From: an uncultured Saccharicrinis sp.
GTDB lineage: Bacteria; Bacteroidota; Bacteroidia; Bacteroidales; Marinilabiliaceae
Direction of reading: 5' to 3'
Assembly: GCA_963666825.2 (NCBI GenBank)
Contig: OY763044.2
Coordinates: 1,047,221 to 1,079,220 of the forward strand
DNA length: 32,000 nucleotides
Under the pieces are notes generated by a model. The model was not told where the DNA came from, searched no databases, and saw nothing but the letters and a program-made list of their open reading frames with translations. Below are positions 3,109-31,106 of the stretch, piece after piece (the stretch's first letter is position 1; each line of letters starts with the position of its first letter). Both the position numbers and the translations under genes were made by a program.

Positions 3109-3132
3109 TATACTGCCTTAAATATTGTACGT

Positions 3133-7537: not shown

Positions 7538-7576
7538 TCAATAGAGTCAGCTTGTTAATAAACTAAAATTTGAATT

Positions 7577-12325: not shown

Positions 12326-12334
12326 TTGTGTTGT

Positions 12335-12838
12335 TTATTTTATTTCAATTCCTAGGGCTATAAGTTTTTGATCTACATTCAATTTGTGCGATATGATGTT
12401 TTGTCGAGAAATTTCATATTGCATTTTACCTCCTTGTAATGTGTAGTTTATACCAGCTCCTTTATTACATGCATTAGAGTTTTCGCAAATAATAAGTGTG
12501 GGTTTATTGGAGAAATAGTTTTTAGCTTCATCTATAGTTGAAGACTTTGATGGCGGGATGTAAAAAATATTTGCATCAGAGGCATCTTTTATATCTTTTA
12601 CGCTTTTAACAACAATGGTTCGGTTGTTTATTTTTCGCGCTCCGGCTAGTTTATTTAGTTCTGGAATTATTTCATCATTTCCAAGAATTCCAATGATGAA
12701 TTCTTCTTGATTTGATTGATTAGGCCATTCAATATATTTAGCAAAGTTAAACATAAACAATGCTTTAAACATTGATTGTTGCCCAGATATGGATAATGAT
12801 ATAAAAATCATTGCCACAACTATTAATCTTTTCTTCAT
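12335..12838 (-). CDS. YfiR-like (DUF4154) periplasmic protein, paralogue 1
   Basis: Signal peptide, then FKALFMFNFAKYIEWP (the family-typical xNFxKYVEWP block). The C-terminal MQYEISRQNIISHKLNVDQKLIALG aligns with ITFEANLDSIARSGVRVHPSVLKLA of P. aeruginosa YfiR as I recall it. Its stop lies 9 nt before the receptor start. Confidence 0.75.
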   Translation of the reverse strand: MKKRLIVVAMIFISLSISGQQSMFKALFMFNFAKYIEWPNQSNQEEFIIGILGNDEIIPELNKLAGARKINNRTIVVKSVKDIKDASDANIFYIPPSKSSTIDEAKNYFSNKPTLIICENSNACNKGAGINYTLQGGKMQYEISRQNIISHKLNVDQKLIALGIEIK

Positions 12839-12871
12839 GGTTGAGATTTTTGTTCTGGATTAATTATCAAT

Positions 12872-12881
12872 TGCGTATTCG
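12872..12881 (-). promoter_or_regulatory. conserved 10-mer (CGAATACGCA on the coding strand) in the leader of module 1; identical copy at 16043-16052
   Basis: TGCGTATTCG is exactly identical in both module leaders. In both it is preceded (coding sense) by AACCTTTT at an 11-12 nt distance and followed by AAAAA(T/C)CTCAA. Confidence 0.35.
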
Positions 12882-12924
12882 TAACATTTGGGAAAAGGTT
12901 TCAGGTAAATGAAATATTTATATC

Positions 12925-12955
12925 AGGCAGGAAATTAGTGAATTAGTTCCTGCCT
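12925..12955 (-). terminator. hairpin between the two YfiR-like/receptor modules (no clear U-tract)
   Basis: AGGCAGGAA / TTCCTGCCT 9-bp stem with a 13-nt loop, 12 nt downstream of the receptor-2 stop. Confidence 0.4.
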
Positions 12956-12966
12956 AAAGAATATTA

Positions 12967-15486: not shown

Positions 15487-15500
15487 GGATTTGTCTTCAA

Positions 15501-16004
15501 TTATTTTACTTCAATTCCTAAAGAGATTAATTTTTGGTCAACTTTTAATTGGTGAGATTCAATGTTTTTTCTACAAATCTCATACTTTAGTTTTCCTTCT
15601 AGTAAAGTGTAGTTAATTGCAGTACCATCTGCACATGCACCCTTTTTTTCACTAACAATTAATGTTGGTTTGTTGTTAAAAAAAGAAACGACTTCACTTA
15701 TGTTACCTGATTTAGATTCAGGAATAAAAAATAATTGAGCATTAGATACTTCAGAGGGAGATTTAACACTCTTTACAACAATGCTTTTGTTGTTAATTTT
15801 TTTTGAACTGGCTAGCTTTTTAAGCTCAGTAACAATATCATCATTACCATAAACACCAATGACGAACTCATTTTGATTTGATAGGTTGGGCCATTCAATG
15901 TATTTTGCAAAATTAAACATAAATAGTGCTTTAAACATTGATTGTTGGCCGGTTAGGGATAATGTCAGAACCAACATTACCAATACAGTCAACTTTTTCT
16001 TCAT
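15501..16004 (-). CDS. YfiR-like (DUF4154) periplasmic protein, paralogue 2
   Basis: 167 aa, colinear without indels with the 12335-12838 product and sharing the same FKALFMFNFAKYIEWPN block. Its stop lies 14 nt before the receptor-2 start. Confidence 0.75.
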   Translation of the reverse strand: MKKKLTVLVMLVLTLSLTGQQSMFKALFMFNFAKYIEWPNLSNQNEFVIGVYGNDDIVTELKKLASSKKINNKSIVVKSVKSPSEVSNAQLFFIPESKSGNISEVVSFFNNKPTLIVSEKKGACADGTAINYTLLEGKLKYEICRKNIESHQLKVDQKLISLGIEVK

Positions 16005-21044: not shown

Positions 21045-23984
21045 CTAACTACTTCTTGGGTCAGGAATAATAGGCATCTTAGCCATTTTTTCAACTTCGA
21101 TACTTGCAAAACCAAACTCTTCAGTTATACGACCCAGTATAAGATACATGCCATAGCCTTTAAACGGATAAGCTTGCAAAGAAGGAGGGAAGTGGGTTGT
21201 GTCGTAAAAATTACCATCTACATCAATAAAAGTAGCAAAGTGCATCAGTTGCTTTCTGACGGTTCTTACATATTTGATGCAGACCAGTTGTCCAATCATA
21301 CGTACTCTTTTCCCAACGTGATGTATGAGATCCTTTGCTTTTAATCCTCCTCTGAAAGTGGTTTGTAACAGGTCAAAGTAAGATAAAGTCACAGGAAAGC
21401 CAATTAGCTCTATCTCGTCATAGGCATCTTCAACCTTATTACGCGCAAGTTGAGGTAGTTGATATTTTTTTTGAGGTAAAGAAAAAAGAGGTTGTGAGCT
21501 TGGTTTCTTCTTGCCAGGAGTGAGTAGAAGGTGCATTTCCCAAAGAAGTTCGCTTTTGCTTTTGTTGGTAAATCGTAGTGCTCCGGTTCTGATTAATATC
21601 ACCATGCTTTCTCTTCCTGCTCCGGTTCGTTTTATGAAGTCTTCCAGATTCTTATAGAGTCCGTTTAATTCTCTTTCGTGATCAATCAACTTAGCTATTT
21701 TTGACTCCAGATTTTGAACATGTATAAAACCCAGGTAAATATCACTTCCTTTAATTGATGTGGTATAAAAGCTGTTGTTTACACAAGGTTGATGAACAAT
21801 GGCCCCTTGTCGTCGAGCCTCGTTTACATAAACCCAGGTTTGATAAAAACCTCCGAAATTATTAATTACGGCAACCATAAACTCTAAAGGATAATGAGCT
21901 TTTAAGTATAAACTTTGGAAGCTTTCAACTGCATATGATGCTGAGTGTGCTTTTGAGAATGAATATCCGGCAAAAGATTCAATTTGTCGCCATACTTCGT
22001 GAGTGATTTTATCGGGATAACCTTTTTGTCTGCAATTGCTGAAGAACTTATCCACAATGCGTTGGAATTCTTTTTTTGAACGGTATTTTCCACTCATGGC
22101 GCGACGAAGTACATCTGCATCAGCTAAATCGAGCCCGGCAAAATGGTGACAAACTTTTAGTACATCTTCCTGATAGACCATAACGCCGTAGGTTTCTTCC
22201 AGCTGTTCCTTCATTACCGGATGCAGATAAGCGATGTTGTTGGGATTATGAAAGCGCTGTATGTATTCGCGCATCATACCCGAACGGGCTACTCCCGGAC
22301 GAATAATAGAACTGGCAGCAACAAGGGTGAGGTAATTGTTACACTGTAGTTTCTTTAATAACCCACGCATGGCAGGACTCTCAATGTAAAAGCAGCCGTT
22401 GGTTTCTGCATCCTGAAGCTGATCTTTTACTTGTTTGTCGGCCATGAACTTTTCAACCTGGTGGATATCGATGTCTATACCTTTATTTTGAAGAACAATC
22501 TGCGTACAGTCTTTAATGTGTCCAATTCCTCTTTGCGAAAGAATATCCAGCTTTTCAAAACCAATATCCTCTGCAATATACATGTCCCACTGTGTGGTAG
22601 GAAAGCCTTTGGGTGGCAAATCTAATGCTGTATAGCAGGTAATAGGATCTTCAGATATCAATACTCCTCCGGCATGAATAGTTCTCAGGTTTGGGAAGTC
22701 TGTCATTAATGAGCCTATTGTATTGATTTTTTGCTTGATCTGATCATCTTTAGCCATTTCAGGATAGTCAATCATCTGGTCAATTTCTTCTTTGGGTAAA
22801 CCATATACCTTTCCTAATTCACGGATGATGGACTTACCCTTGAATGTACTCATTGCACCCAACAAAGCAGTGTGCTGCGTTCCGTATCTTTTAAAAATAT
22901 AGTCCTGAACATCCTCCCGCTCTTTCCACGAATAATCTATGTCAAAATCAGGAGGAGAGGAACGTTTGGGGTTTAAAAAACGCTCAAAATACAGGTTTAG
23001 CTTGATGGGATCAACATCGGTTATTTTTAAACAGAAGGCTACAATGCTGTTGGCACCACTGCCTCGTCCTACATGATAAAAACCTCTCGACATGGAATAC
23101 CTGATAATGTCCCAGGTAATTAAAAAATAAGCAGCAAATCCTAGTTTGTTAATAATGTGTAGCTCTTTATTAATTCTTTCACGAGCAAAAATATTGTTGG
23201 CACCATAGCGATAAAGCATGCCATCTAAAGTTAGTTTTTCAAGAAGCTTCTTATCGTCGTAAAAGCTCCCGGTAAATGTTTTTTTGTTACGAATTGCAGT
23301 GAAATCAAAGTCAAAACTACATTCTTTTAATAGTTCTTCAGTGGTTTTTATAATCTCAGGAAACTGACTGTAGCTTTGTTTTATTTTATCAGGCGAGCAT
23401 AGTGTGTCATTAATATGTCCGGCATCTTCAGGAGTAAGCTGGCTTAATAATATGTTCTTATCTATGGCCCTAAGGTGACGATGTAAAGAGTAACCTTCCT
23501 CATTACAGAAAGTAGCAGGTTGCCATATCACCAGTTTGTGTTGATGATAGCGAAACGATGACGAAATCAATTTACGAAGTTGTAGCGGTTGAATGCCTAC
23601 AAATTCATTTTCCTGTAAATCTTTAGGTTGTATGCTGCCATAAGGATAAATGACATAGGTGTGGTCAAATACTTTGGGTTTGTTAGGTAGTGTTGTATTT
23701 GTAAGATTATGGCGGGTTAAAAAATTATTAAGCTCAAGGTATCCCTGGTTGTTTTTAGCAATGCCAATGTATAGTAGTTTATGGTCTCTTCTGAATTCAA
23801 TGCCGGCTAAAGCAGTAATCCCAACTTCGCGACAAGCTTTTATAAAATCAAACAATCCGGTACTGTTGTTAATATCAGTAAGGACTAATGTTTTTATGCC
23901 TAAAGAAGATGCTTTTTTAGCCAATTCTTCCGGAGACATAACACCGTATCGTAAACTGTAATATGTATGTGTATTTAAGTGCAT
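21045..23984 (-). CDS. dnaE2: error-prone DNA polymerase III alpha-subunit paralogue (DnaE2/ImuC type)
   Basis: N-terminal PHP domain (MHLNTHTYYSLRYG). Pol IIIalpha palm motif GRGSGANSIVAFCLKITDVDP…PDFDIDY. At 979 aa it is shorter than replicative Bacteroidota DnaE. It lies downstream of a Y-family polymerase and next to an S24 repressor. Confidence 0.85.
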   Translation of the reverse strand: MHLNTHTYYSLRYGVMSPEELAKKASSLGIKTLVLTDINNSTGLFDFIKACREVGITALAGIEFRRDHKLLYIGIAKNNQGYLELNNFLTRHNLTNTTLPNKPKVFDHTYVIYPYGSIQPKDLQENEFVGIQPLQLRKLISSSFRYHQHKLVIWQPATFCNEEGYSLHRHLRAIDKNILLSQLTPEDAGHINDTLCSPDKIKQSYSQFPEIIKTTEELLKECSFDFDFTAIRNKKTFTGSFYDDKKLLEKLTLDGMLYRYGANNIFARERINKELHIINKLGFAAYFLITWDIIRYSMSRGFYHVGRGSGANSIVAFCLKITDVDPIKLNLYFERFLNPKRSSPPDFDIDYSWKEREDVQDYIFKRYGTQHTALLGAMSTFKGKSIIRELGKVYGLPKEEIDQMIDYPEMAKDDQIKQKINTIGSLMTDFPNLRTIHAGGVLISEDPITCYTALDLPPKGFPTTQWDMYIAEDIGFEKLDILSQRGIGHIKDCTQIVLQNKGIDIDIHQVEKFMADKQVKDQLQDAETNGCFYIESPAMRGLLKKLQCNNYLTLVAASSIIRPGVARSGMMREYIQRFHNPNNIAYLHPVMKEQLEETYGVMVYQEDVLKVCHHFAGLDLADADVLRRAMSGKYRSKKEFQRIVDKFFSNCRQKGYPDKITHEVWRQIESFAGYSFSKAHSASYAVESFQSLYLKAHYPLEFMVAVINNFGGFYQTWVYVNEARRQGAIVHQPCVNNSFYTTSIKGSDIYLGFIHVQNLESKIAKLIDHERELNGLYKNLEDFIKRTGAGRESMVILIRTGALRFTNKSKSELLWEMHLLLTPGKKKPSSQPLFSLPQKKYQLPQLARNKVEDAYDEIELIGFPVTLSYFDLLQTTFRGGLKAKDLIHHVGKRVRMIGQLVCIKYVRTVRKQLMHFATFIDVDGNFYDTTHFPPSLQAYPFKGYGMYLILGRITEEFGFASIEVEKMAKMPIIPDPRSS

Positions 23985-24004
23985 TTCTTTTAGTTTTCAG
24001 ATAA

Positions 24005-24049
24005 CAGTCTTCAGTCAACTGCTAACTGGAGACTGCCAACTGCATACTG
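24005..24049. repeat. 7-nt-periodic tetramer array in the dinB-dnaE2 spacer: CAGT x2 then ACTG x5 (+ strand)
   Basis: CAGT occurs at 24005 and 24012. ACTG occurs at 24018, 24025, 24032, 24039 and 24046. On the mRNA strand this reads CAGU x5 followed by ACUG x2. Confidence 0.7.
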
Positions 24050-24071
24050 AGGGCTGTTTTACTTTCAATGT

Positions 24072-25223
24072 CTAATGCATGGCAGCAGCTCTGCCAATGG
24101 CATCTTTTCCATAGCGTTTTCTTATTCTATCCATAGTTTGGTACAGGTTAACTGTTTCAGGAGTGTCTTCAAATAAATTAAGTTGTTGTGTACCGCTAAT
24201 TAAACTGCTGAGTCTGATTCCCAGTAAGCGGATGAGCATTCGTCGGGTGTAAACTCGTTTAAAAAGATCCTGAGCAATAGAAATAATATCATGATCAAAG
24301 GAGGTGTAAGCCACTCTTTTTTGAAGAGAATGCGTGTCGAAATTTGAATATTTTATTTTTACAGAAATACAGCCTGTTAATTTTTGCTTGCTACGAAGTT
24401 CAAAGGCCAGTTTCTCCGACATACGAATAATAAGTTCATTTAAATACCTGATGTCGGTAGTGTCCTGTTCAAAAGTACGTTCAGTACTAATTGATTTTTG
24501 CTCTGTATATCTGATAACAGGAGTGGGATCTATGCCATTGGCTTTCTTCCAGATCATGATTCCGTTTTGCCCCAGTACACGTTGCATCATGTCAATAGGA
24601 ATCTGACTTAATGTTTCAATGTTTATAACACCCATAGAACGTAATAATTGATAGGTTTTAGGACCTAACATAGGAATCTTCTTTATTGAAAGAGGGTTTA
24701 AAAAGGGTTGTACAGATGTTGGTATTATTTCCAGTTCTCCATTGGGTTTTGCTTCGCCGGTTGCAATTTTAGATACGGTTTTGTTCACCGATAAGCCAAA
24801 TGAAATAGGCAATCCTGTTTCTTTGATAATGGTTTGACGCAGTTCTTTACTCCATTTTAAACAACCAAAAAAGCGATCCATCCCTGTTAAATCCAGGTAG
24901 TGCTCGTCAATGGATGCTTTTTCATAAACGGGAGCTTTTTCAGCTATGATTTCAGTTACAATACGTGATTGTTTGGAGTATTCATCCATGTCACCTCTGA
25001 TGAAGTAGGCATCACTACATAGTTGACGTGCCATTTTCATGGGCATAGCTGAGTGTACGCCAAATTTACGAGCTTCATAACTGCATCCGGCAACAACACC
25101 ACGATCAGACATGCCCCCAATAATAACAGGTTTCCCATTTAAAACGCTGTTATGTAATCTCTCTACCGACACAAAAAATGTGTCCAAATCCATATGTACT
25201 ATTTGTCGTTGACTACCAGACAT
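24072..25223 (-). CDS. dinB: Y-family DNA polymerase (Pol IV/DinB-like) with intact catalytic acidic residues
   Basis: VHMDLDTFFVSVE (canonical D-x-D…E block), SIDEHYLDLTG (catalytic D/E), and the little-finger region. Its 383-aa length fits DinB rather than the catalytically dead ImuB. Confidence 0.85.
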   Translation of the reverse strand: MSGSQRQIVHMDLDTFFVSVERLHNSVLNGKPVIIGGMSDRGVVAGCSYEARKFGVHSAMPMKMARQLCSDAYFIRGDMDEYSKQSRIVTEIIAEKAPVYEKASIDEHYLDLTGMDRFFGCLKWSKELRQTIIKETGLPISFGLSVNKTVSKIATGEAKPNGELEIIPTSVQPFLNPLSIKKIPMLGPKTYQLLRSMGVINIETLSQIPIDMMQRVLGQNGIMIWKKANGIDPTPVIRYTEQKSISTERTFEQDTTDIRYLNELIIRMSEKLAFELRSKQKLTGCISVKIKYSNFDTHSLQKRVAYTSFDHDIISIAQDLFKRVYTRRMLIRLLGIRLSSLISGTQQLNLFEDTPETVNLYQTMDRIRKRYGKDAIGRAAAMH

Positions 25224-25236
25224 CTTTTTTATAAAA

Positions 25237-25253
25237 TGATTAGAAAATAATCA
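25237..25253. promoter_or_regulatory. candidate operator 1: TGATTA-N5-TAATCA perfect palindrome
   Basis: Lies 14-30 nt upstream of the dinB-like ATG, in the divergent control region shared with the S24 repressor gene. Confidence 0.45.
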
Positions 25254-25266
25254 AAGTTGTGTTTAT

Positions 25267-25290
25267 AATATAATCAAAAATGATTATATT
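25267..25290. promoter_or_regulatory. candidate operator 2: AATATAATCA-AAAA-TGATTATATT perfect 10-bp inverted repeat
   Basis: Uses the same TAATCA/TGATTA hexamers in the opposite arrangement. Lies 44-67 nt upstream of the dinB-like ATG. Confidence 0.45.
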
Positions 25291-25321
25291 TGGAAATATT
25301 AGTCTGGGTGATTTTGCTTTT

Positions 25322-25338
25322 TGATTAGTATATAATCT
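25322..25338. promoter_or_regulatory. candidate operator 3: TGATTA-N5-TAATCT (11/12 palindrome)
   Basis: Lies 60-76 nt upstream of the repressor ATG at 25398. Confidence 0.4.
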
Positions 25339-25397
25339 GAATAAAGTGGAACATCTTCAGTTATTTGAGTTGTTAATATCTTTTTTATTGAATAGCT

Positions 25398-26204
25398 ATG
25401 TTTTTTAGTTCGAATATTAAATTTTTGAGAAAGCGCCGTAAGCGAACACAGGATGATGTTGCTGTAGCTTTAGATATGAAACGATCCACTCTGAGTGGGT
25501 ACGAAAATGGTGTGGCACAGCCCAGTGTTTCTGTGTTGGTTGCTTTTTCAGGCTATTTCAATGTGGCAATAGATACCTTAATAAAGATTGACTTAACATC
25601 ATTAAGAGAGAGTCAGCTGACTCAGCTGGAAAATGGATTTGATGTATTTTTAAAAGGAAGTGGGTTGAGGGTTTTGGTTTCAACTGTAGATTCGGATAAT
25701 AGAGAAAATATTGAATTGGTGCCGGAAAAAGCAAAAGCAGGATATACAACAGGTTTCTCTGATCCTGAATATGTTAAGGATTTACCAGTGTTTCAATTGC
25801 CTTTTTTATCCAGTGAAAAGAAATATCGGACCTTTCAGATATCCGGAGATTCCATGCTTCCTATTCCTAGTTCATCCTGGGTTACAGGAGAATTTTTACT
25901 TGACTGGCGGAATATCAAAAGTGGAACCCCATGTATTATTGTAACGCAGGATGATGGTGTAGTATTTAAAATTGTTGAAAATAAACTGGAGGATGAAAAG
26001 GTGTTGAGGTTGCATTCGTTGAATCCGCTTTATAAGCCCTATACTATAGCTGCAGAAGGTGTTTGTGAGGTTTGGCAGTTTGTACACTATATCAGTAATG
26101 TTATGCCTGAAAATCAAGAGGAATCTATTGATTTGGAGCAAACTGTGGTTGGTTTGCAGCAGGAAATTATTCGTATTAAGGAACGTATGGGTTGGAAAGA
26201 ATAA
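25398..26204 (+). CDS. LexA/CI-like autocleavable repressor: XRE-type HTH + S24 peptidase domain
   Basis: N-terminal HTH (IKFLRKRRKRTQDDVAVALDMKRSTLSGYENGVAQPS). A possible Ala-Gly cleavage site sits in PEKAKAGYTTG. The S24 Ser motif is ISGDSMLP and the Lys block is VVFKIV. The gene is divergent from dinB-dnaE2. Confidence 0.85.
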   Translation: MFFSSNIKFLRKRRKRTQDDVAVALDMKRSTLSGYENGVAQPSVSVLVAFSGYFNVAIDTLIKIDLTSLRESQLTQLENGFDVFLKGSGLRVLVSTVDSDNRENIELVPEKAKAGYTTGFSDPEYVKDLPVFQLPFLSSEKKYRTFQISGDSMLPIPSSSWVTGEFLLDWRNIKSGTPCIIVTQDDGVVFKIVENKLEDEKVLRLHSLNPLYKPYTIAAEGVCEVWQFVHYISNVMPENQEESIDLEQTVVGLQQEIIRIKERMGWKE

Positions 26205-26300: not shown

Positions 26301-26308
26301 TATATTTG
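26301..26308 (+). promoter_or_regulatory. candidate -7 promoter box (TATATTTG) for the DUF554-kinase-murU-nhaA gene string
   Basis: Exact TAnnTTTG match, 54 nt upstream of the 26362 start. Confidence 0.4.
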
Positions 26309-26361: not shown

Positions 26362-27048
26362 TTGATTACCGGCACAATAATAAATATATCAACTGTACTT
26401 CTGGGAAGTTTAATAGGTATTCTTTTCCGCTCAAAATTACCTGAGCGTTTTATTAAGATTGTTTTTCAGGGAATAGGTCTTTTCACTATTGTACTTGGAG
26501 TGTCTATGTCGCTAAAAAGTAATCATTTGTTGGTTATGGTTTTTAGCCTGATTGTAGGTGGAATTGTGGGAGAGTTGCTTCGTCTGGAAACAAAAGTGGA
26601 GGGTGTGGCTAATTATCTGAAAGATAAATTTAAGTTAGGAAACGAGCGTTTTTCAGAAGGAATGGTTACTGCATTTTTATTGTACTGCATGGGATCAATG
26701 ACTATTCTGGGAGCGATTGAAGAGGGGATAGGTAATGGTTATGATTTATTACTTACCAAATCAATTATGGATGGATTTGCCAGTATCGCATTGGCTTCTG
26801 CATTTGGTGTGGGCGTAGCTTTCTCAGTTGTGCCTTTGTTAGTGTATCAAGGTGGGTTAACGGTTTTAAGTACCTTTTTAGGTGATTATTTTTCTGATAT
26901 AATAACTAATGATATGACAGCGGTGGGAGGTGTGTTATTGGTTGGATTAGGAATTAATATATTAGAAATAAAGAAAATTAAAGTATTGAATTTGCTACCT
27001 GCAATATTAGCCGCTATAGCTTTATCGTGGTTGTATATGCAGTTTTAA
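26362..27048 (+). CDS. DUF554 (YdfK/YqgA-like) integral membrane protein
   Basis: MITGTIINISTVLLGSLIGILFRSKLPERF matches the conserved DUF554 N-terminus. The protein is multi-helix and hydrophobic throughout. The start codon is TTG. Confidence 0.75.
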   Translation: MITGTIINISTVLLGSLIGILFRSKLPERFIKIVFQGIGLFTIVLGVSMSLKSNHLLVMVFSLIVGGIVGELLRLETKVEGVANYLKDKFKLGNERFSEGMVTAFLLYCMGSMTILGAIEEGIGNGYDLLLTKSIMDGFASIALASAFGVGVAFSVVPLLVYQGGLTVLSTFLGDYFSDIITNDMTAVGGVLLVGLGINILEIKKIKVLNLLPAILAAIALSWLYMQF

Positions 27049-27058
27049 CAATAGATAT

Positions 27059-28483
27059 ATGAAGTTAGAAAAACAGCAATTGTTAATGGAAATGTTTACC
27101 CAATGGGCGGGAGGAAAAGTGGAATCTTTATCCTTGCTTCCTCCATCGGGATCCTATAGAGAATATTTACGTATTTGTGGTGGTGGTAAATGTGCGTTGG
27201 GTGTTTCTAATGCAGATGTTAAAGAGAATAAAGCTTTTCTTGGTTTTTCTGAGCATTTTCATGCTCAGGGTTTAAAAGTACCTCAGGTTTACGCTCAAAA
27301 TCTGGATGAGGGAATTTATCTGGTTGAAGATTTGGGTAGTGTAACACTATTTGATTTTTTGCAGGAAAACAGGGTTGGGGATGATATGTCACCATCTTTA
27401 ATCGATTTATATAAAAAAACAATAAAAGAGTTGATTCAATTTCAACTCAAAGGAACAGAAGGTCTTGATTTTGATTTGTGTTATCCTCGAAAGGCTTTTG
27501 ATCGCCAATCGATGTTGTGGGATCTTCATTACTTCAAATATTATTTCTTAAAGTTGGCGCAGGTTCCGTTTGATGAGCAGGTGTTGGAAGATGACTTTGA
27601 TAAATTAATAGATTTTCTGTTGGAAGCTGAGCATCATTATTTTTTATATCGTGATTTTCAATCCCGAAATATTATGGTGAAGCAAGGTGAACCTTGGTTT
27701 ATTGATTATCAGGGGGGGCGAAAAGGAGCTTTGCAATATGATCTGGCATCATTGCTTTATGATGGTAAAGCAGATATTCCTCCTAAAGTAAGGGAAGATT
27801 TGTATTCTTATTATGTAGATGAGCTTAAAAAAGTTAAAGATATTGACGAAACAGCCTTTAAAAATCATTTTACAGGCTATGTATATATTCGTATCATGCA
27901 GGCTATGGGAGCTTATGGTTTCAGGGGTTTTTATGAGAAGAAAGAGCATTTCTTAAAAAGCATTCCTTATGCCTTACAGAATATTTCATATTTGTTAGAA
28001 AATAGTCCTTTACCTATTGATACACCTGAATTAAAAAAGGTATTAAGTTCATTAATTGAAAATGAGAAATTAAAAAAGATCAATGCTTTAACTGTTACCA
28101 TTAATAGTTTCTCTTATAAAAGAGGAATTCCTTTTGATATGAGTGGAAATGGAGGTGGATTTGTGTTTGATTGCAGAGCCATTCATAATCCGGGAAGATA
28201 TGCTGAATATAAGCATATAACAGGTAGGGATGAGCCTGTAATTGAATTTCTTTCAAAAGAACCTGAAATGAAACAGTTTTTAGATTCTGTTTTTGCTTTA
28301 GTTTCTCAATCTGTAGAGAAATATATAGAGCGAAATTTTAAACATTTGATGGTGAATTTTGGTTGTACTGGTGGTCAGCATCGTTCTGTATATAGTGCTG
28401 AAAGATTAGTTGATTATCTTAGTTCAAAGTATCCTGTATCTATTAAAATCCGACATATAGAGCAGGAGATAAAGAAAGGTTAA
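27059..28483 (+). CDS. fusion protein: AmgK-like anomeric amino-sugar kinase (APH fold, res ~1-330) + RapZ C-terminal-like domain (res ~343-465)
   Basis: Kinase part: LVEDLGSVTL, catalytic loop YRDFQSRNIMV, and FIDYQGGRKGALQYDLASLL. C-terminal part: SFSYKRGIPFD…FVFDCRAIHNPGRY…ITGRDEPVIEFL…MVNFGCTGGQHRSVYSAERLVDYL aligns block by block with E. coli RapZ SFGFKHGIPID…YVFDVRFLPNPHW…MTGLDKPVAAFL…[24 protein letters not shown]. Confidence 0.85.
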   Translation: MKLEKQQLLMEMFTQWAGGKVESLSLLPPSGSYREYLRICGGGKCALGVSNADVKENKAFLGFSEHFHAQGLKVPQVYAQNLDEGIYLVEDLGSVTLFDFLQENRVGDDMSPSLIDLYKKTIKELIQFQLKGTEGLDFDLCYPRKAFDRQSMLWDLHYFKYYFLKLAQVPFDEQVLEDDFDKLIDFLLEAEHHYFLYRDFQSRNIMVKQGEPWFIDYQGGRKGALQYDLASLLYDGKADIPPKVREDLYSYYVDELKKVKDIDETAFKNHFTGYVYIRIMQAMGAYGFRGFYEKKEHFLKSIPYALQNISYLLENSPLPIDTPELKKVLSSLIENEKLKKINALTVTINSFSYKRGIPFDMSGNGGGFVFDCRAIHNPGRYAEYKHITGRDEPVIEFLSKEPEMKQFLDSVFALVSQSVEKYIERNFKHLMVNFGCTGGQHRSVYSAERLVDYLSSKYPVSIKIRHIEQEIKKG

Positions 28484-28487
28484 AGTT

Positions 28488-28637
28488 ATGGGAAAGACTA
28501 TGTGCAAGAAGGACAAGAAAGACAAGAAAAAAGATCTTGATCCTCAGCAGCAAGAAGAGAAGAAGTTTAGATGTAAAAAATGTAATGCAACATCTAATAA
28601 GGAAAAGAAATTGTGTAAACCAACTAAAAATCAATAG
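28488..28637 (+). CDS. unannotated 49-codon Lys-rich, 4-Cys small ORF (possible zinc-ribbon-like micro-protein)
   Basis: ATG at 28488, 4 nt after the kinase stop. TAG at 28635-28637, 7 nt before the next ATG. Translation: MGKTMCKKDKKDKKKDLDPQQQEEKKFRCKKCNATSNKEKKLCKPTKNQ. It is below the ORF-track length cutoff and fills the intergenic gap exactly. Confidence 0.35.
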   Translation: MGKTMCKKDKKDKKKDLDPQQQEEKKFRCKKCNATSNKEKKLCKPTKNQ

Positions 28638-28644
28638 TTAATTA

Positions 28645-29370
28645 ATGAATGCATTGATATTTGCAGCTGGTTTAGGTACAAGATTAGCTCATTTGACAAA
28701 AGAAATACCAAAAGCCTTGGTAGAAGTTGATGGTAAACCAATGTTGTTGCATGCCATTGAAAAGATGATTTCTGTTGGTGTTACCCGTATCGTTATTAAT
28801 ATGCATCATCATGCAGATAAAGTGAAGGCATTTGTGGAGGGATTGGATTTTAAAGGAGTTGAGATTTTTTTGTCGGATGAGAGTAATGAATTATTAGAAA
28901 CCGGAGGTGGGCTAATAAAGGCTGCACCTCTTTTTGATATGTCAAAACCAATCATATTATATAATTCGGATGTAATTACAGGTGCTGATTTAAATAATAT
29001 GGTTTCGTTTCATGAAAAAAATAAAGGCCTGGCTACCTTAATGATTAAAAAGCGTGATACTTCGCGTTATTTTTTATTTGATAGTCAATTTAGGTTATCT
29101 GGTTGGGAGAATATTTCAACCGGAGATAAGATTATAACAAGAGAAAATACGTTTTTAGATTCTTATGCTTTTTCAGGTATACATATTGTTAATCCTGAAA
29201 TTATAGAATTATTGGGCAAGGAACGTAAATTTTCTATTACACAAGGTTATTTAGATCTTTCTGAGCAGTATCTAATATATGGATGGAAAGATTGGAGTGA
29301 GTATTGGTTTGATATTGGTACTCCTGAGAAATTAGCTTCTGTAAATCAATTTTTTAAAGAGAGTAGTTAA
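28645..29370 (+). CDS. sugar-1-phosphate nucleotidyltransferase, MurU-like (MurNAc-1-P uridylyltransferase candidate)
   Basis: N-terminal MNALIFAAGLGTRLAHLTKEIPKALVEVDGKPML (the GxGTRL nucleotidyltransferase motif). It is 241 aa and lies downstream of an AmgK-like kinase, as in the AmgK-MurU recycling pair. Confidence 0.75.
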   Translation: MNALIFAAGLGTRLAHLTKEIPKALVEVDGKPMLLHAIEKMISVGVTRIVINMHHHADKVKAFVEGLDFKGVEIFLSDESNELLETGGGLIKAAPLFDMSKPIILYNSDVITGADLNNMVSFHEKNKGLATLMIKKRDTSRYFLFDSQFRLSGWENISTGDKIITRENTFLDSYAFSGIHIVNPEIIELLGKERKFSITQGYLDLSEQYLIYGWKDWSEYWFDIGTPEKLASVNQFFKESS

Positions 29371-29406: not shown

Positions 29407-30774
29407 ATGACAAGTAATGAGAGTTTAAGTCAACAAAGCTTTTATCAACGGTTTTTTAAAGGAATAACGAGTGGAAGTTCCTTGTTGATGTTTGCGACTT
29501 TAGTTGCCGTAATTTGGGCTAATGTACATCATCATTCTTATGAAGGAGTATGGCATGATTTATTTTCATTAGAGGTACATGCTTTAAGTTTGAAAATGAG
29601 TTGGCATCATTGGATTAATGATGGTTTGATGGCCATTTTCTTTTTTGTGGTTGGATTGGAAATTAAAAGGGAGTTTTTGGCCGGGGAGTTAAGTTCTATT
29701 AAGCAGGCATCGCTTCCTATTTTTGCTGCAGTTGGCGGAATGGTTATTCCGATTATTTTATTTTTCTTATTTGGTTTAGAAGGTGAAGCAGGTAATGGTT
29801 GGGGAATTCCTATGGCTACAGATATTGCCTTTTCTTTGGGTATTTTGGCCATGTTAGGTAAAAGAGTTCCTTTAAGTCTTAAGGTTTTTCTTACAGCACT
29901 GGCTATTGTAGATGACCTTGGAGCTGTAATGGTAATTGCATTGTTTTACGGAGGGGAGCTTCAGTGGACTTATTTGGCTATTGCATTTGGATTGTTAGCT
30001 ATTTTGGCTATTGCTAACTTTTTAAATATTCAGGATTTGAAGTTGTATACTTTTGTAGGGTTTGTAATCTGGTTCTTGTTTATTGAGTCTGGTGTTGACG
30101 GACCGGGGTCAGGTTTGCATGCTACCATTGCAGGTGTACTAATTGCATTTACAATTCCTGCTCGTCCAAAAGTTAAAGTTGATCAGTTTCTTTCAAGGAT
30201 AAGTAAAGAAACAAAACACTTTCAGGGAGGAAGTAGTCATGATAATGCCATAGTTTTAACTTCGGAACAGATGCATGCGGCTGATGAGATAGAAAATGCC
30301 GTCTCTAAAGTTCGTAGTCCTTTGCAGTTTATGGAACATCAGTTTCATGGTTTCATAAGTCTTTTTGTTCTTCCTTTGTTTGCTCTGGCAAATGCCGGAG
30401 TTGTTTTGGGCGGTGGACATGGAGATGGGACCATAGGTATGGTATCACTTGCCATTGCATTTAGTCTTGTTTTTGGAAAGGTTATAGGTATTACATTGTT
30501 TTCCTGGTTAGCTGTTAAATTAAGAATCTCAATTAAGCCTCATGGAACATCATGGTTGTCATTTATAGGACTAGGTATGTTAGGTGGAATTGGTTTTACA
30601 ATGTCAATATTTATTGCAAGTTTAGCTTATCCAAATTCACCGGAAATTTTAAATCAAGCTAAAATTGGAATTTTATTAGGTTCAATAGTGGCTGGTGTTA
30701 TGGGGTATTTTACTTTAAAATATTCTCTTAAAAGGGATGAAGAGATGGTAAATAAAGGAGAGAAGATAAAGTAA
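29407..30774 (+). CDS. nhaA: Na+/H+ antiporter NhaA
   Basis: WINDGLMAIFFFVVGLEIKRE and ATDIAFSLGILAMLG are the signature NhaA motifs (conserved Asp pair region ALAIVDDLGAV). About 12 TM segments. Confidence 0.95.
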   Translation: MTSNESLSQQSFYQRFFKGITSGSSLLMFATLVAVIWANVHHHSYEGVWHDLFSLEVHALSLKMSWHHWINDGLMAIFFFVVGLEIKREFLAGELSSIKQASLPIFAAVGGMVIPIILFFLFGLEGEAGNGWGIPMATDIAFSLGILAMLGKRVPLSLKVFLTALAIVDDLGAVMVIALFYGGELQWTYLAIAFGLLAILAIANFLNIQDLKLYTFVGFVIWFLFIESGVDGPGSGLHATIAGVLIAFTIPARPKVKVDQFLSRISKETKHFQGGSSHDNAIVLTSEQMHAADEIENAVSKVRSPLQFMEHQFHGFISLFVLPLFALANAGVVLGGGHGDGTIGMVSLAIAFSLVFGKVIGITLFSWLAVKLRISIKPHGTSWLSFIGLGMLGGIGFTMSIFIASLAYPNSPEILNQAKIGILLGSIVAGVMGYFTLKYSLKRDEEMVNKGEKIK

Positions 30775-30805: not shown

Positions 30806-30831
30806 AAAGGAGCCGTTTGGCTCCTTTTTTT
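30806..30831. terminator. bidirectional rho-independent terminator between nhaA and the convergent small HTH gene
   Basis: AAAGGAGCC / GGCTCCTTT stem with a GTTT loop, A-run upstream and T7 downstream. Confidence 0.8.
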
Positions 30832-30833: not shown

Positions 30834-31106
30834 TTACATATATTCATGAACTTCTTTTTTGCCTTCTAAAAGGTCTTTTGCGTACTCTAGTATTGTTGTA
30901 TCATCCAATTCAACTATTCCACCGTCAGGACCTGGTTCAGTGTGTATACCAACGCTTTTACCTCTTTCGTAGTTTTTACCACCAAAATAATTTCGAACAG
31001 TTTCAACTGTTAAATTTAAATCTTCAGCAATGGTTCTAATACTACCATCAGGAAGACTGTCCTTTAGTTTTCTTAGCTGGTTGAATGTGATCGTTGTAGT
31101 GCTCAT
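30834..31106 (-). CDS. small (90 aa) putative HTH DNA-binding protein
   Basis: SIRTIAEDLNLTVETVRNYF looks like a helix-turn-helix. The ORF has its own terminator and an AT-rich upstream region. I did not recognise a family. Confidence 0.5.
   Translation of the reverse strand: MSTTTITFNQLRKLKDSLPDGSIRTIAEDLNLTVETVRNYFGGKNYERGKSVGIHTEPGPDGGIVELDDTTILEYAKDLLEGKKEVHEYM

What the first reader, a model, noticed from the sequence alone, without database searches (positions are those of the whole stretch)
27059..28483. AmgK-like amino-sugar kinase fused to a RapZ C-terminal domain, next to a MurU-like nucleotidyltransferase
Residues 1-330 are an APH-fold kinase resembling AmgK, the anomeric MurNAc/GlcNAc kinase of the AmgK-MurU peptidoglycan-recycling bypass. 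They carry YRDFQSRN and IDYQGG…YDLASLL. Residues ~343-465 (nt 28085-28453) align block by block with the C-terminal domain of RapZ. In enterobacteria that domain binds the sRNA GlmZ and has been reported to sense GlcN6P. The usual P-loop N-domain of RapZ is thus replaced by a different kinase fold. The catalytic-loop His of the H-x-D motif is Tyr here. The gene sits in a tight string: DUF554, this gene, a 49-codon ORF, a MurU-like gene and nhaA. The fusion suggests one of two things. The RapZ-C fold may be a sugar-phosphate-binding module regulating or channelling UDP-MurNAc salvage. Alternatively it may link cell-wall sugar recycling to RNA-level control of amino-sugar synthesis.
Basis: partly seen in the sequence, partly recalled or inferred. 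Interest (0 to 1): 0.7.

Follow-up and report, generated by a model that had tools for sequence, protein, structure and literature searches.

The report
Sugar kinase carrying a RapZ-type domain
This gene encodes a cell-wall-sugar salvage kinase (AmgK-like) with the sugar-phosphate-binding C-terminal domain of RapZ attached; this domain is a regular third part of a kinase-plus-uridylyltransferase pathway in Bacteroidota and their relatives, yet databases often mislabel the protein as an RNA-degradation adaptor.

Summary
ORF 27059..28483 (474 aa) has an APH-fold kinase domain whose closest curated family is AmgK, and a true RapZ C-terminal domain (Pfam PF22740, E=1e-34; predicted fold TM 0.91 to E. 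coli RapZ-CTD). A MurU-like nucleotidyltransferase gene lies 161 nt downstream.

The protein is one member of a very large family. It occurs in at least 543 species genomes across Bacteroidota, Ignavibacteriota, Calditrichota and Fidelibacterota bins. These include gut Bacteroides, Phocaeicola, Parabacteroides and Prevotella.

The new result is that the RapZ-C module always sits between the two enzymes, in three arrangements:
- fused to the kinase, as here;
- fused to the nucleotidyltransferase, with the kinase as a separate gene;
- in a kinase–RapZ-C–nucleotidyltransferase triple fusion.

The phosphate-binding loop C436-T-G-G-x-H-R-S443 is invariant. E. coli His190 is an invariant Gly here, the RNA-binding tail is absent, and a Gly-rich insertion is added.

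My best reading is that RapZ-C is a phospho-amino-sugar-binding module built into UDP-MurNAc salvage, and not an RNase adaptor. Whether it regulates or catalyses is open. I found no paper that mentions this domain on AmgK. NCBI labels many members 'RNase adapter RapZ', which is wrong. This is a new variant of a known kind, of moderately high interest.

The parts
26301..26308 (+). TATATTTG, which fits the Bacteroidetes-type -7 promoter box (TAnnTTTG). It lies 53 nt upstream of the DUF554 start and may be the promoter of the gene string.
   Evidence: Sequence read. The consensus is from my own knowledge of Bacteroides promoters. This is an inference and was not tested.
26362..27048 (+). DUF554 membrane protein, first gene of the co-directional string.
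   Evidence: PF04474 E=6.9e-77. It lies upstream of the fusion gene only in Marinilabiliales-type loci (9 of 80), so it is a lineage-specific neighbour.
27059..28483 (+). Gene for the 474-aa AmgK-like kinase + RapZ-C fusion protein (coordinates include the stop codon).
   Evidence: AlphaFold2 model pLDDT 90.8, pTM 0.79.
27059..28048 (+). APH-fold kinase domain, residues 1-330, AmgK-like.
   Evidence: PF01636 E=4e-11. NCBIfam AmgK NF045759 E=1.9e-17, 63 bits against a cut-off of 550. Foldseek top hit 3csv, E=1e-12. Alignment to 3csv.
27647..27670 (+). Catalytic loop Y197-R-D199-F-Q-S-R-N204. The catalytic Asp and Asn are kept; the usual His is Tyr.
   Evidence: Invariant R198-N204 and nearly invariant Y197 in 50 family members. 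3csv has HRDFHAQN.
27701..27718 (+). I215-D216-Y-Q-G-G220, the equivalent of the metal-binding 'DFG' Asp motif.
   Evidence: D216, Q218, G219 and G220 are invariant. It aligns with IDFQDA of 3csv.
28088..28459 (+). RapZ C-terminal domain, residues 344-467.
   Evidence: PF22740 E=1e-34. The domain-only model (pLDDT 91.6) matches E. coli RapZ-CTD 5o5s with TM 0.91, rmsd 1.8 A and 36% identity.
28142..28159 (+). Family-specific Gly-rich insertion S362-G-N-G-G-G367, absent from E. coli RapZ.
   Evidence: There is a 5-residue gap in E. coli RapZ at this point in the alignment. G365, G366 and G367 are invariant and N364 nearly so.
28160..28195 (+). F368-V-F-D371-C372-R373-A-I-H376-N-P-G379: the remodelled 'lid' of the pocket. 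D371 corresponds to E. coli D182 (dimer contact) and R373 to R184. G379 replaces E. coli His190.
   Evidence: Residue mapping, taken from the alignment. D371, C372, R373, N377, P378 and G379 are invariant and H376 nearly so. Roles of the E. coli residues are from PMC5737377, PMC7073468 and PMC9841335.
28364..28387 (+). Phosphate-binding loop C436-T-G-G-Q-H441-R442-S443, corresponding to E. coli C247, T248, G249, H252 and R253. It lies between strand 429-436 and helix 442-457.
   Evidence: C436, T437, G438, G439, H441, R442 and S443 are invariant. Mapping. Secondary structure. The pocket binds sulphate/malonate in E. coli RapZ (PMC5737377).
28488..28637 (+). Conserved 49-aa Lys-rich protein with four invariant cysteines (C6, C29, C32, C43; zinc-ribbon-like spacing).
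   Evidence: A similar 39-57 aa ORF starts from 4 nt before (one locus, overlapping the stop) to 78 nt after the fusion gene's stop, mostly within 31 nt, in 28 of 84 loci, whether or not the MurU-like gene follows. In the alignment of 17 orthologues, M1, C6, C29, C32 and C43 are invariant. No Pfam or NCBIfam hit.
28645..29370 (+). MurU-like sugar-1-phosphate nucleotidyltransferase (241 aa).
   Evidence: PF00483 E=1e-21. The best NCBIfam family is MurU NF045761, 118 bits against a cut-off of 250. PDB: P. putida MurU 4y7t E=7e-18, but plant mannose-1-P guanylyltransferases score higher. It lies directly downstream of the fusion gene in 44 of 80 species loci.
29407..30774 (+). NhaA Na+/H+ antiporter, last gene of the string. 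Probably a neighbour only.
   Evidence: PF06965 E=3e-137. It is linked only in close relatives (9 to 11 loci).
30806..30827 (.). GC-rich hairpin with flanking T/A runs between the convergent genes. Likely the terminator of the string.
   Evidence: 9-bp stem with 5 GC pairs. The terminator-like sites the scan reported between 26362 and 30774 all lie inside coding sequence.

Best explanation
The gene encodes the form of the anomeric amino-sugar kinase (AmgK-like, APH fold) that is standard in Bacteroidota and related phyla.

**Pathway (inferred).** Together with the MurU-like nucleotidyltransferase encoded just downstream, it most likely converts salvaged MurNAc (possibly also GlcNAc) to the sugar-1-phosphate and then to the UDP-sugar. 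That product feeds peptidoglycan synthesis. No activity was measured.

**Role of the RapZ-C domain.** It is a dedicated third module of this two-enzyme pathway, not an RNase adaptor.
- It keeps the phosphate-binding loop of RapZ (C436-T-G-G-x-H-R-S443).
- It has a remodelled lid: a Gly-rich insertion, Cys372, and His190 replaced by Gly.
- It lacks the RNA-binding tail.
- I infer that it binds a phosphorylated amino sugar or UDP-sugar (for example GlcN6P, MurNAc-6P, MurNAc-1P or UDP-MurNAc).
- I infer that it thereby tunes or couples the kinase and uridylyltransferase steps to the precursor pool. The conserved CTD self-association surface (D371 = E. coli D182) may help assemble the complex.

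**Shown:** the domain identities, the conservation pattern, the three architectures and the gene linkage.
**Inferred:** the substrate, ligand binding and the regulatory role.
For: **Domains.**

**Kinase probably active.** D199, N204 and D216 are invariant.

**Closest curated families.** These are AmgK and MurU in every architecture tested. In Parabacteroides distasonis the neighbour scores 146 bits to MurU, against 86 bits for the next family.

**Linkage to the MurU-like gene.**
- The MurU-like gene is directly downstream in 44 of 80 species loci across several phyla. No other neighbour is family-wide.
- The module order is fixed (kinase, RapZ-C, nucleotidyltransferase) in three architectures: APH-RapZ_C plus NTP_transferase; APH plus RapZ_C-NTP_transferase (L085/L086; 387-aa protein in at least 9 contigs); and triple fusions of 714-768 aa in four separate 50%-identity clusters, on contigs up to 102 kb.

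**Pocket conservation.** Five of six E. coli pocket residues, plus K170, D182 and R184, are conserved or invariant. They are also present in the other architectures.

**Literature.**
- RapZ-CTD alone binds GlcN6P, and the pocket is conserved beyond Enterobacteriaceae whereas the RNA-binding region is not (PMC7073468).
- The pocket binds sulphate/malonate (PMC5737377).
- The anabolic AmgK/MurU route is reported for Bacteroides sp. (PMC8054146).
- T. forsythia AmgK/MurU are functional in E. coli (PMC10941766, PMC13041923).
- Parabacteroides, in the same family as Tannerella, has this fusion type next to the MurU-like gene.

**Parallel in Firmicutes.** The RapZ homologue YvcJ is encoded next to GlmR and binds it. 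GlmR is reported to be an accessory GlcNAc-1-P uridyltransferase (PMC7525490, PMC10128056).
Against: - The kinase and the nucleotidyltransferase score far below the NCBIfam equivalog cut-offs for AmgK and MurU (63 against 550; 118 against 250).
- In the PDB sequence search the neighbour is closer to mannose-1-P guanylyltransferases than to P. putida MurU. The sugar is therefore not established.
- In 32 of 76 informative loci the MurU-like gene is not adjacent.
- His190, which is essential in E. coli RapZ, is Gly here. Ligand specificity may therefore differ, and binding is not shown.
- I could not confirm that the experimentally used T. forsythia AmgK carries this domain.
- No data distinguish a regulatory role from a catalytic or purely structural one.
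Confidence: 0.55

Rival explanations
1. The RapZ-C domain is itself an enzyme. It would be a Cys-dependent phosphatase or phosphotransferase acting on an amino-sugar phosphate. One candidate reaction is dephosphorylation of MurNAc-6P to MurNAc, the step done by the HAD phosphatase MupP in Pseudomonas. The three modules would then make up a complete salvage line.
For: - C436-x5-R442-S443 is invariant. It sits on a strand-loop-helix element, the local arrangement of Cys-x5-Arg phosphatases (my own knowledge).
- In E. coli RapZ, C247A and even C247S abolish activity. The authors suggest a 'specialised catalytic function' and report a 'chemically transformed product' of GlcN6P in the pocket (PMC9841335).
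- B. subtilis YvcJ is reported to have phosphatase activity (PMC7525490, citing Luciano 2009).
- The fixed position of the domain between two enzymes in the triple fusions fits a third catalytic step.
Against: - Foldseek with the domain-only model finds only RapZ. There is no PTP, LMW-PTP, ArsC or rhodanese fold with E<0.1.
- No general-acid residue has been identified.
- The YvcJ phosphatase activity has not been assigned to the C domain.
- No activity data exist for this family.
Confidence: 0.17
2. The RapZ-C domain binds RNA, as in enterobacterial RapZ. It would link cell-wall sugar salvage to post-transcriptional control of amino-sugar synthesis.
For: - The domain is homologous to the RNA-binding CTD of RapZ.
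- K170, R184, R196 and R211 correspond to basic residues here.
- A Lys-rich Cys4 mini-protein is encoded immediately downstream. It could in principle bind nucleic acid.
Against: - The C-terminal tail consensus RxRxKNxQxRHRTxxKRK is absent; the protein ends ...IRHIEQEIKKG (PMC7525490).
- H190 is G; K194 is E; R238 is F (invariant); K251 is Q; K270 is V.
- The RNA-binding region and GlmY/GlmZ are restricted to Enterobacteriaceae (PMC7073468).
- No Rfam family was found in the window.
- The C domain has only a slight excess of basic residues (18 K+R against 15 D+E).
Confidence: 0.05
3. The kinase and nucleotidyltransferase pair activates a substrate other than MurNAc. Candidates are GlcNAc or GalNAc, another hexose, or a non-sugar alcohol as in the LicA/LicC choline pathway. 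The product would serve glycan, capsule or lipid-head-group synthesis. RapZ-C would still be an accessory ligand-binding module.
For: - Both enzymes are far below the AmgK and MurU equivalog cut-offs.
- The best PDB sequence matches of the neighbour are mannose-1-P guanylyltransferases.
- APH-fold kinase plus NTP_transferase pairs exist for other substrates; LicA and LicC appear among weaker hits.
- No other peptidoglycan-recycling gene is linked in the 80 loci.
Against: - AmgK and MurU are the top curated families by a clear margin in every member tested.
- The literature treats the Bacteroides and Tannerella homologues as AmgK/MurU, and the T. forsythia pair incorporates MurNAc probes (PMC8054146, PMC10941766).
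- RapZ-family proteins are otherwise tied to amino-sugar metabolism (PMC7073468, PMC7525490).
Confidence: 0.18
4. RapZ-C serves only as an oligomerisation or scaffold element. It would bring the kinase and nucleotidyltransferase together through the CTD dimer interface and would bind no ligand.
For: - The E. coli CTD dimerises on its own, and D182A abolishes self-interaction (PMC7073468, PMC5737377). D371 is invariant here.
- The domain can be attached to either enzyme.
Against: The loop C436-S443 and the Gly-rich insertion are invariant across phyla and across architectures. That is hard to explain by scaffolding alone.
Confidence: 0.05

Closest known systems
AmgK-MurU anabolic peptidoglycan-recycling bypass (Pseudomonas putida PP_0405/PP_0406; also Legionella, Caulobacter, Tannerella forsythia)
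   Same: - An APH-fold kinase with an intact catalytic Asp/Asn and metal-binding Asp.
- An adjacent small NTP_transferase-fold gene.
- AmgK and MurU are the best-matching curated families.
- The pathway is reported in Bacteroides sp. and in T. forsythia (PMC8054146, PMC13046382).
   Different: - Proteobacterial AmgK is a single-domain protein of about 38 kDa (PMC11957156). This protein carries an extra 130-residue RapZ-C domain.
- The catalytic-loop His is Tyr.
- Scores are far below the equivalog cut-offs.
- The third Pseudomonas component, the HAD phosphatase MupP, has no counterpart in the locus.
RapZ (YhbJ), RNase adaptor and GlcN6P sensor of Escherichia coli
   Same: - The C-terminal domain is homologous: 36% identity, TM 0.91.
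- The phosphate-binding loop C247, T248, G249, H252, R253 is conserved, as is the dimer-contact Asp.
   Different: - The P-loop NTPase N domain is absent and an APH kinase takes its place.
- His190 is Gly.
- There is a 5-residue Gly-rich insertion.
- The basic RNA-binding tail is absent.
- No GlmY/GlmZ system exists outside Enterobacteriaceae (PMC7073468).
YvcJ-GlmR (YvcK) pair of Firmicutes
   Same: A protein containing RapZ-C with a kinase-like domain is encoded next to an enzyme that forms a UDP-amino-sugar, and cooperates with it. GlmR is an accessory GlcNAc-1-P uridyltransferase, and YvcJ binds GlmR in a UDP-GlcNAc-dependent way (PMC10128056, PMC7525490).
   Different: Both partners are non-homologous to those here: a P-loop domain instead of APH, and a CofD-like GlmR instead of an NTP_transferase fold. 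The parallel is an analogy I draw, not a demonstrated relationship.
Other APH-kinase plus nucleotidyltransferase salvage pairs (LicA/LicC for choline; NahK-type anomeric hexosamine kinases)
   Same: The same two folds act in the order kinase then nucleotidyltransferase.
   Different: The matches are weaker. To my knowledge none carries a RapZ-C module.

Membership tests
AmgK (N-acetylmuramate/N-acetylglucosamine 1-kinase; NCBIfam NF045759, NF045698) | APH / protein-kinase-like fold | tested here: met
   PF01636 E=4e-11. Foldseek top hit is the AmgK-like 3csv, E=1e-12.
AmgK (N-acetylmuramate/N-acetylglucosamine 1-kinase; NCBIfam NF045759, NF045698) | Catalytic-loop Asp and Asn, and the metal-binding Asp | tested here: met
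   D199, N204 and D216 are invariant in 50 members. The preceding His is Tyr.
AmgK (N-acetylmuramate/N-acetylglucosamine 1-kinase; NCBIfam NF045759, NF045698) | Whole-protein score at or above the curated equivalog cut-off | tested here: not met
   63.4 bits against 550, and 45.9 bits against 500. For P. distasonis, 71 bits against 550. AmgK is nevertheless the best kinase family by many orders of magnitude.
AmgK (N-acetylmuramate/N-acetylglucosamine 1-kinase; NCBIfam NF045759, NF045698) | Genomic pairing with a MurU-type nucleotidyltransferase | tested here: met
   Directly downstream in 44 of 80 species loci. Also fused in triple-fusion proteins.
AmgK (N-acetylmuramate/N-acetylglucosamine 1-kinase; NCBIfam NF045759, NF045698) | ATP-dependent phosphorylation of MurNAc/GlcNAc at C1 | not testable with these tools
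   Needs an enzyme assay. Indirect support: T. forsythia AmgK/MurU work in E. coli (PMC10941766). I could not verify that that protein has this architecture.
RapZ (RNase adapter; NCBIfam NF003828 / PRK05416) | [quoted passage not shown] | tested here: not met
   The NCBIfam match covers only model positions 114-277. The N-terminal 330 residues are an APH kinase.
RapZ (RNase adapter; NCBIfam NF003828 / PRK05416) | RapZ C-terminal domain (PF22740) fold | tested here: met
   E=1e-34. TM 0.91, rmsd 1.8 A to 5o5s.
RapZ (RNase adapter; NCBIfam NF003828 / PRK05416) | Sulphate/malonate pocket residues H190, T248, G249, H252, R253 plus C247 | tested here: inconclusive
   Five of the six are conserved and invariant. 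H190 is an invariant Gly, with a nearly invariant His three residues earlier.
RapZ (RNase adapter; NCBIfam NF003828 / PRK05416) | Basic C-terminal RNA-binding tail (RxRxKNxQxRHRTxxKRK) | tested here: not met
   The protein ends IRHIEQEIKKG. The consensus is from PMC7525490.
RapZ (RNase adapter; NCBIfam NF003828 / PRK05416) | Whole-protein score at or above the curated cut-off | tested here: not met
   114.8 bits against 244.
MurU (MurNAc-alpha-1-P uridylyltransferase), for the neighbouring gene 28645..29370 | NTP_transferase fold, with MurU as the best curated family | tested here: met
   PF00483 E=1e-21. NF045761 is top at 118 bits, the next non-MurU family at 81 bits.
MurU (MurNAc-alpha-1-P uridylyltransferase), for the neighbouring gene 28645..29370 | Score at or above the equivalog cut-off; UDP-MurNAc-forming activity | tested here: not met
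   118 bits against 250, and 114 against 370. In the PDB sequence search, mannose-1-P guanylyltransferases score above P. putida MurU. The activity is not testable here.
Cys-x5-Arg phosphatases (PTP / LMW-PTP / ArsC type), considered for the RapZ-C domain | C-x5-R-(S/T) signature on a strand-loop-helix element | tested here: met
   C436-TGGQH-R442-S443, between strand 429-436 and helix 442-457.
Cys-x5-Arg phosphatases (PTP / LMW-PTP / ArsC type), considered for the RapZ-C domain | Overall fold related to a known Cys-phosphatase superfamily | tested here: not met
   Foldseek against the PDB returns only RapZ below E=0.1. No phosphatase fold appears.

The most novel reading that the evidence does not exclude
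RapZ-C is an ancient module that handles amino-sugar phosphates. Its original job is to work with a kinase and an enzyme that forms UDP-amino-sugars.

- The AmgK-like / RapZ-C / MurU-like system of Bacteroidota and relatives (with RapZ-C fused on either side, or on both) and the Firmicute YvcJ-GlmR pair would be two independent realisations of one design.
- RNA binding in enterobacterial RapZ would be a late add-on.
- In the strongest version the domain is catalytic, through its invariant Cys-x5-Arg loop. It would supply or edit the phospho-sugar, for example as a MurNAc-6P phosphatase replacing MupP. The triple fusions would then be a three-enzyme salvage line.
Probability: 0.25. Interest if true: 0.8.

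Novelty: new variant of a known kind. Interest (0 to 1): 0.6.

Why it matters
**An open question about RapZ.** RapZ/YvcJ proteins are conserved widely, but their function outside Enterobacteriaceae is unresolved. The role of the conserved pocket and its essential cysteine is also open (PMC9841335, PMC7073468). Here the same C domain is attached to a different kinase fold, or directly to a sugar-nucleotide-forming enzyme, in thousands of genomes. That makes a concrete hypothesis testable with simple biochemistry: the domain's core function is to bind or process a phospho-amino-sugar in UDP-sugar synthesis.

**Medical and technical relevance.** The proteins occur in abundant gut and oral Bacteroidales (Bacteroides, Phocaeicola, Parabacteroides, Prevotella). 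In these organisms MurNAc salvage bears on fosfomycin tolerance, on cross-feeding (Tannerella is a MurNAc auxotroph), and on the metabolic labelling tools that use Tannerella AmgK/MurU.

**Annotation.** Many members are named 'RNase adapter RapZ' in RefSeq. That name is misleading and should be corrected.

Tried and rejected
1. **T. forsythia AmgK architecture.** I tried to establish whether the experimentally used T. forsythia AmgK has the RapZ-C domain.
   - The key papers (Hottmann 2021, Wodzanowski 2022, Hyland 2024) are not held.
   - No supplementary files are held for the JACS paper.
   - A second homology search, seeded with a Paludibacteraceae member, returned Bacteroides and Muribaculaceae names but no Tannerella.
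   - The nearest I got is Parabacteroides distasonis, in the same family (Tannerellaceae), which has the fusion followed by the MurU-like gene.
2. **Cys-phosphatase fold.** I tested whether RapZ-C is a Cys-phosphatase fold, using a domain-only model and Foldseek. It is not: only RapZ is found, then insignificant hits including PFK.
3. **Other conserved partners.** I looked for phosphatases, AnmK, MurQ or transporters by clustering all neighbouring ORFs in 80 loci. Only the MurU-like gene is family-wide. DUF554, DUF218, NhaA, a 236-aa ORF cluster I read from sequence as YebC-like (11 loci, not scanned against Pfam) and others are lineage-specific.
4. **RNA elements and tRNAs in the window.** None were found.
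5. **Sigma-70 promoter scan.** It is not informative here: 18 sites found against 21 expected. Bacteroidota use a different consensus.
6. **Possible vestige of the RapZ N domain.** The apparent extension of RapZ homology upstream of the Pfam boundary (residues 300-343) could be such a vestige. The similarity is weak (LPIDTPEL against LIVDTSEM). In the split architecture the C domain starts right at the first strand. I do not rely on this.
7. **Stand-alone RapZ in these genomes.** I could not test this. Only one scan of the species-genome collection was allowed, and it was used for the fusion itself.


Full report
**1.

The ORF at 27059..28483 (+) is real and encodes 474 residues.

- Pfam places a RapZ C-terminal domain (PF22740) at residues 344-467, with E=1e-34 and 119.8 bits against a gathering score of 27. 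It places an APH phosphotransferase domain at residues 55-253, E=4e-11.
- NCBIfam's best hits are RapZ, but only model positions 114-277 (the C half), and then the two AmgK equivalog models at E=1.9e-17 and 4.7e-12.
- Against PDB sequences, residues 314-468 match E. coli RapZ (5o5o, E=1.5e-18). Residues 33-308 match 3csv, an AmgK-like 'aminoglycoside phosphotransferase' from Silicibacter (E=8.6e-15).
- An AlphaFold2 model built on 50 family members is confident (pLDDT 90.8, pTM 0.79). Foldseek puts 3csv first and also finds RapZ.
- A model of residues 335-474 alone (pLDDT 91.6) superposes on the crystal structure of the E. coli RapZ C-terminal domain, 5o5s, with TM 0.91, rmsd 1.8 A and 36% identity.
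- The His-to-Tyr change in the catalytic loop is real (HRDFHAQN in 3csv, YRDFQSRN here). It is a family trait.

**2. Surroundings**

Five co-directional genes have gaps of 10, 4, 7 and 36 nt:

| Gene | Coordinates |
|---|---|
| DUF554 membrane protein | 26362..27048 |
| the fusion gene | 27059..28483 |
| a 49-codon ORF | 28488..28637 |
| an NTP_transferase-fold gene | 28645..29370 |
| nhaA | 29407..30774 |

- The best curated family for the NTP_transferase-fold gene is MurU: 118 bits, with the next unrelated family at 81 bits.
- A GC-rich hairpin follows nhaA at 30806..30827. The scan also reported terminator-like sites between 26362 and 30774, but all of them lie inside coding sequence.
- TATATTTG at 26301..26308 fits the Bacteroidetes -7 box. 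That consensus comes from my own knowledge and the site is untested.
- No Rfam family or tRNA is present in the window.

**3. It is a member of a very large family**

- Both homology searches were capped at 8000 scored candidates, and all 8000 passed the E-value limit set for that search (1e-5, 1e-10). Every one of the 120 best in each carries PF22740 plus PF01636.
- The closest relatives are Saccharicrinis and Plebeiibacterium (Marinilabiliales): 96-99% identity on 5.9-6.1 Mb chromosomes.
All 80 loci kept are essentially full-length matches. They span Bacteroidota, Ignavibacteriota, Calditrichota, Fidelibacterota/Marinimicrobia and Chlorobiota, plus some bins labelled Elusimicrobia or Methylomirabilis.
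- Gut and oral Bacteroidales have it too: Bacteroides gallinaceum, B. finegoldii, Phocaeicola, Muribaculaceae, Paludibacteraceae, Parabacteroides distasonis and Prevotella oral taxon 299.
- Source names vary: 'phosphotransferase', 'RapZ C-terminal domain-containing protein' and, wrongly, 'RNase adapter RapZ'.

**4. Both halves are under strong constraint**

In 50 sequences at 58-88% identity, the invariant positions are:

- Kinase half: R198-D-F-Q-S-R-N204 (Y197 nearly invariant), D216, Q218-G-G-R221, and Y227-D228.
- RapZ-C half: S350-F-S352, G365-G-G367, F370-D-C-R373, N377-P-G379, and G435-C-T-G-G439 followed by H441-R-S-V444.

The catalytic Asp and Asn and the metal-binding Asp of APH-type kinases are therefore intact. 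The kinase is probably active.

**5. The key result: three architectures with one module order**

I searched 1.84 billion representative proteins with the C domain alone. This gave 3424 relatives, 256 of them at E<=1e-30. Most of the best 150 are proteins of about 475 aa with the domain at about residues 340-475. Others differ:

- **Triple fusions.** Four separate clusters (P0158, P0196, P0206, P0216; 714-768 aa) have APH, RapZ_C and NTP_transferase in one chain. They recur in independent assemblies. P0158 has five members of 722 aa, on contigs up to 102 kb.
- **Split form.** P0133 (387 aa, at least nine contigs) is RapZ_C fused to NTP_transferase. A separate 335-aa APH kinase gene lies 55 nt upstream (loci L085, L086).

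The module order is always kinase, RapZ-C, nucleotidyltransferase, and the break point can fall on either side of RapZ-C. The pocket motifs are kept in all of them, and their best curated families are again AmgK, RapZ (C half) and MurU.

Among the 80 species loci, the MurU-like gene is directly downstream in 44. It is absent there in 32, and 4 contigs are too short to tell. Clustering all neighbouring ORFs shows no other family-wide partner.

This is classical fusion and neighbourhood evidence that RapZ-C belongs functionally to the kinase/nucleotidyltransferase pathway.

**6. What the RapZ-C domain keeps and what it has lost**

The roles of the E. coli residues below come from the literature:

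- The malonate/sulphate pocket is formed by H190, T248, G249, H252 and R253, with C247 adjacent (PMC5737377, PMC9841335).
- The isolated CTD binds GlcN6P (PMC7073468).
- C247A and C247S are inactive. The authors raise a catalytic role and report a 'chemically transformed product' of GlcN6P in the pocket (PMC9841335).
- D182 is needed for CTD self-association (PMC7073468).
- K170, R184, K194, R196, R211, R238 and K251 line the RNA path (PMC9841335).
- The RNA-binding tail has the consensus RxRxKNxQxRHRTxxKRK and is not conserved outside enterobacteria (PMC7525490, PMC7073468).

Mapping through the alignment:

| E. coli RapZ | This protein | Status |
|---|---|---|
| C247, T248, G249, H252, R253 | C436, T437, G438, H441, R442 | conserved; all invariant in the family |
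| K170, D182, R184 | K354, D371, R373 | conserved |
| H190 | G379 | changed; invariant Gly, with a nearly invariant H376 three residues earlier |
| K194 | E383 | changed |
| R238 | F427 | changed; invariant Phe |
| K251 | Q440 | changed |
| K270 | V460 | changed |

- The protein ends IRHIEQEIKKG, without the basic tail.
- A five-residue Gly-rich insertion (S362-GNGGG367), invariant in the family, sits just before the strand that carries D371, C372 and R373.
- In short, the phosphate-binding loop is preserved, the lid is remodelled, and the RNA-binding features are largely gone.

**7. Mechanism**

*Best explanation (confidence 0.55).* This is an AmgK-like anomeric amino-sugar kinase. Together with the MurU-like enzyme it salvages MurNAc (and perhaps GlcNAc) into the UDP-sugar. 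RapZ-C serves as a built-in phospho-sugar- or UDP-sugar-binding module that couples the two steps to the precursor pool or coordinates them.

Support from the literature:
- The anabolic AmgK/MurU route is stated to occur in Bacteroides sp. (PMC8054146).
- T. forsythia AmgK/MurU convert MurNAc probes when expressed in E. coli (PMC10941766, PMC13041923).
- Parabacteroides, in the same family as Tannerella, has exactly this fusion. Its stop overlaps the start of the MurU-like gene by 4 nt.
- A suggestive parallel exists in Firmicutes. The RapZ homologue YvcJ is encoded next to GlmR and binds it in a UDP-GlcNAc-dependent way. GlmR is reported to be an accessory GlcNAc-1-P uridyltransferase (PMC7525490, PMC10128056). 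Two unrelated kinase-type domains and two unrelated uridyltransferases are thus found with the same C domain. This is my inference, not a published claim that I found.

*Rivals.*
- **(a) The domain is catalytic (0.17).** The invariant C-x5-R-S loop lies on a strand-loop-helix element. The E. coli C247S result and the reported phosphatase activity of YvcJ point the same way. However, Foldseek finds no Cys-phosphatase fold.
- **(b) RNA binding (0.05).** The losses listed in section 6 disfavour it.
- **(c) A substrate other than MurNAc (0.18).** Both enzymes are far below the equivalog cut-offs. In the PDB sequence search the neighbour is nearer to mannose-1-P guanylyltransferases than to P. putida MurU.
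- **(d) Pure scaffold (0.05).** This does not explain the invariant pocket.

**8. Comparison with what is known, and novelty**

- The protein works like AmgK but is not an NCBIfam equivalog. It also has an extra domain.
- It is not RapZ. It lacks the P-loop N domain and the RNA-binding tail, and it falls below the RapZ cut-off.
- The architecture is catalogued in databases. Full-text searches found no paper that mentions AmgK together with RapZ. Searches pairing RapZ or AmgK with Bacteroides found nothing that discusses the fusion. The library does not hold most subscription papers, so an existing description cannot be excluded.
- I rate it a new variant of a known kind. It is ordinary as a gene in this genome, since thousands of genomes have it. 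It is informative about the unresolved core function of RapZ-family C domains.

**9. Limits**

- No activity, ligand or complex was measured.
- The relative placement of the two domains in the model could not be inspected; only summary scores are returned.
- Whether these genomes also have a stand-alone RapZ was not tested.
- Whether the T. forsythia enzyme used experimentally has this domain was not established.

Noticed in passing
window 28488..28637 (+); also L001, L005-L013, L015, L017, L022, L035-L061, L082: The 49-codon ORF is a real, conserved small gene. A Lys-rich protein of 39-57 aa with four invariant cysteines (C-x17-25-C-x2-C-x10-C, zinc-ribbon-like) starts from 4 nt before (one locus, overlapping the stop) to 78 nt after the stop of the fusion gene, mostly within 31 nt, in 28 of 84 loci. 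It is also present in Prolixibacteraceae, where the MurU-like gene is not adjacent. Its linkage is therefore to the fusion gene. It has no Pfam or NCBIfam match.
   Followed up: partly
L089 5986..7416 (Parabacteroides distasonis WP_005858754.1); L090 5986..7416 (Bacteroides finegoldii WP_237923178.1): RefSeq names these kinase + RapZ-C proteins 'RNase adapter RapZ'. They lack the P-loop N domain and the RNA-binding tail, so this is a propagating misannotation.
   Followed up: yes
L089 8166..9197: In P. distasonis an endonuclease/exonuclease/phosphatase-family gene (PF03372) follows the MurU-like gene after 15 nt. It is a possible phosphatase partner of the pathway in that lineage.
   Followed up: partly
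P0161 (570 aa), P0157 (718 aa, Paludibacteraceae), P0210, P0143, P0247: Further RapZ-C architectures exist: HEAT repeats + RapZ-C; 3'-5' exonuclease (PF01612) + APH + RapZ-C, which recurs in six cluster members; and proteins with long unassigned N-terminal regions.
   Followed up: partly
window 21045..26204: A damage-inducible mutagenesis cassette: a DnaE2-like polymerase (21045..23984, -) and a Y-family polymerase (24072..25223, -), divergent from an HTH_3 + Peptidase_S24 LexA-like repressor (25398..26204, +).
   Followed up: no
window 9944..16004 (-): A tandem duplication of a two-gene unit: a YfiR/HmsC-like DUF4154 protein (167 aa) followed by a TonB-dependent receptor (793 and 839 aa).
   Followed up: no
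window 2308..5496 (+): A glycyl-radical enzyme (PFL-like, 787 aa) with its radical-SAM activase directly upstream. The substrate is unknown.
   Followed up: no
loci of Prolixibacteraceae / Draconibacterium type (14 of 80, e.g. L045): A DUF218 (ElyC/YdcF-type) gene lies divergently upstream of the fusion gene in 14 loci. In 11 loci a 411-aa protein with no Pfam match lies downstream.
   Followed up: partly
window 28142..28159 (residues 362-367): An invariant Gly-rich insertion, SGNGGG, distinguishes the fusion-family RapZ-C domain from E. coli RapZ. It lies next to an invariant Cys372 that is Val in E. coli.
   Followed up: partly
window 6962..8758 (+) and 30834..31106 (-): Three ORFs (191, 393 and 90 aa) have no Pfam match. 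The 90-aa ORF is also called as a gene in the near-identical genome L004.
   Followed up: no
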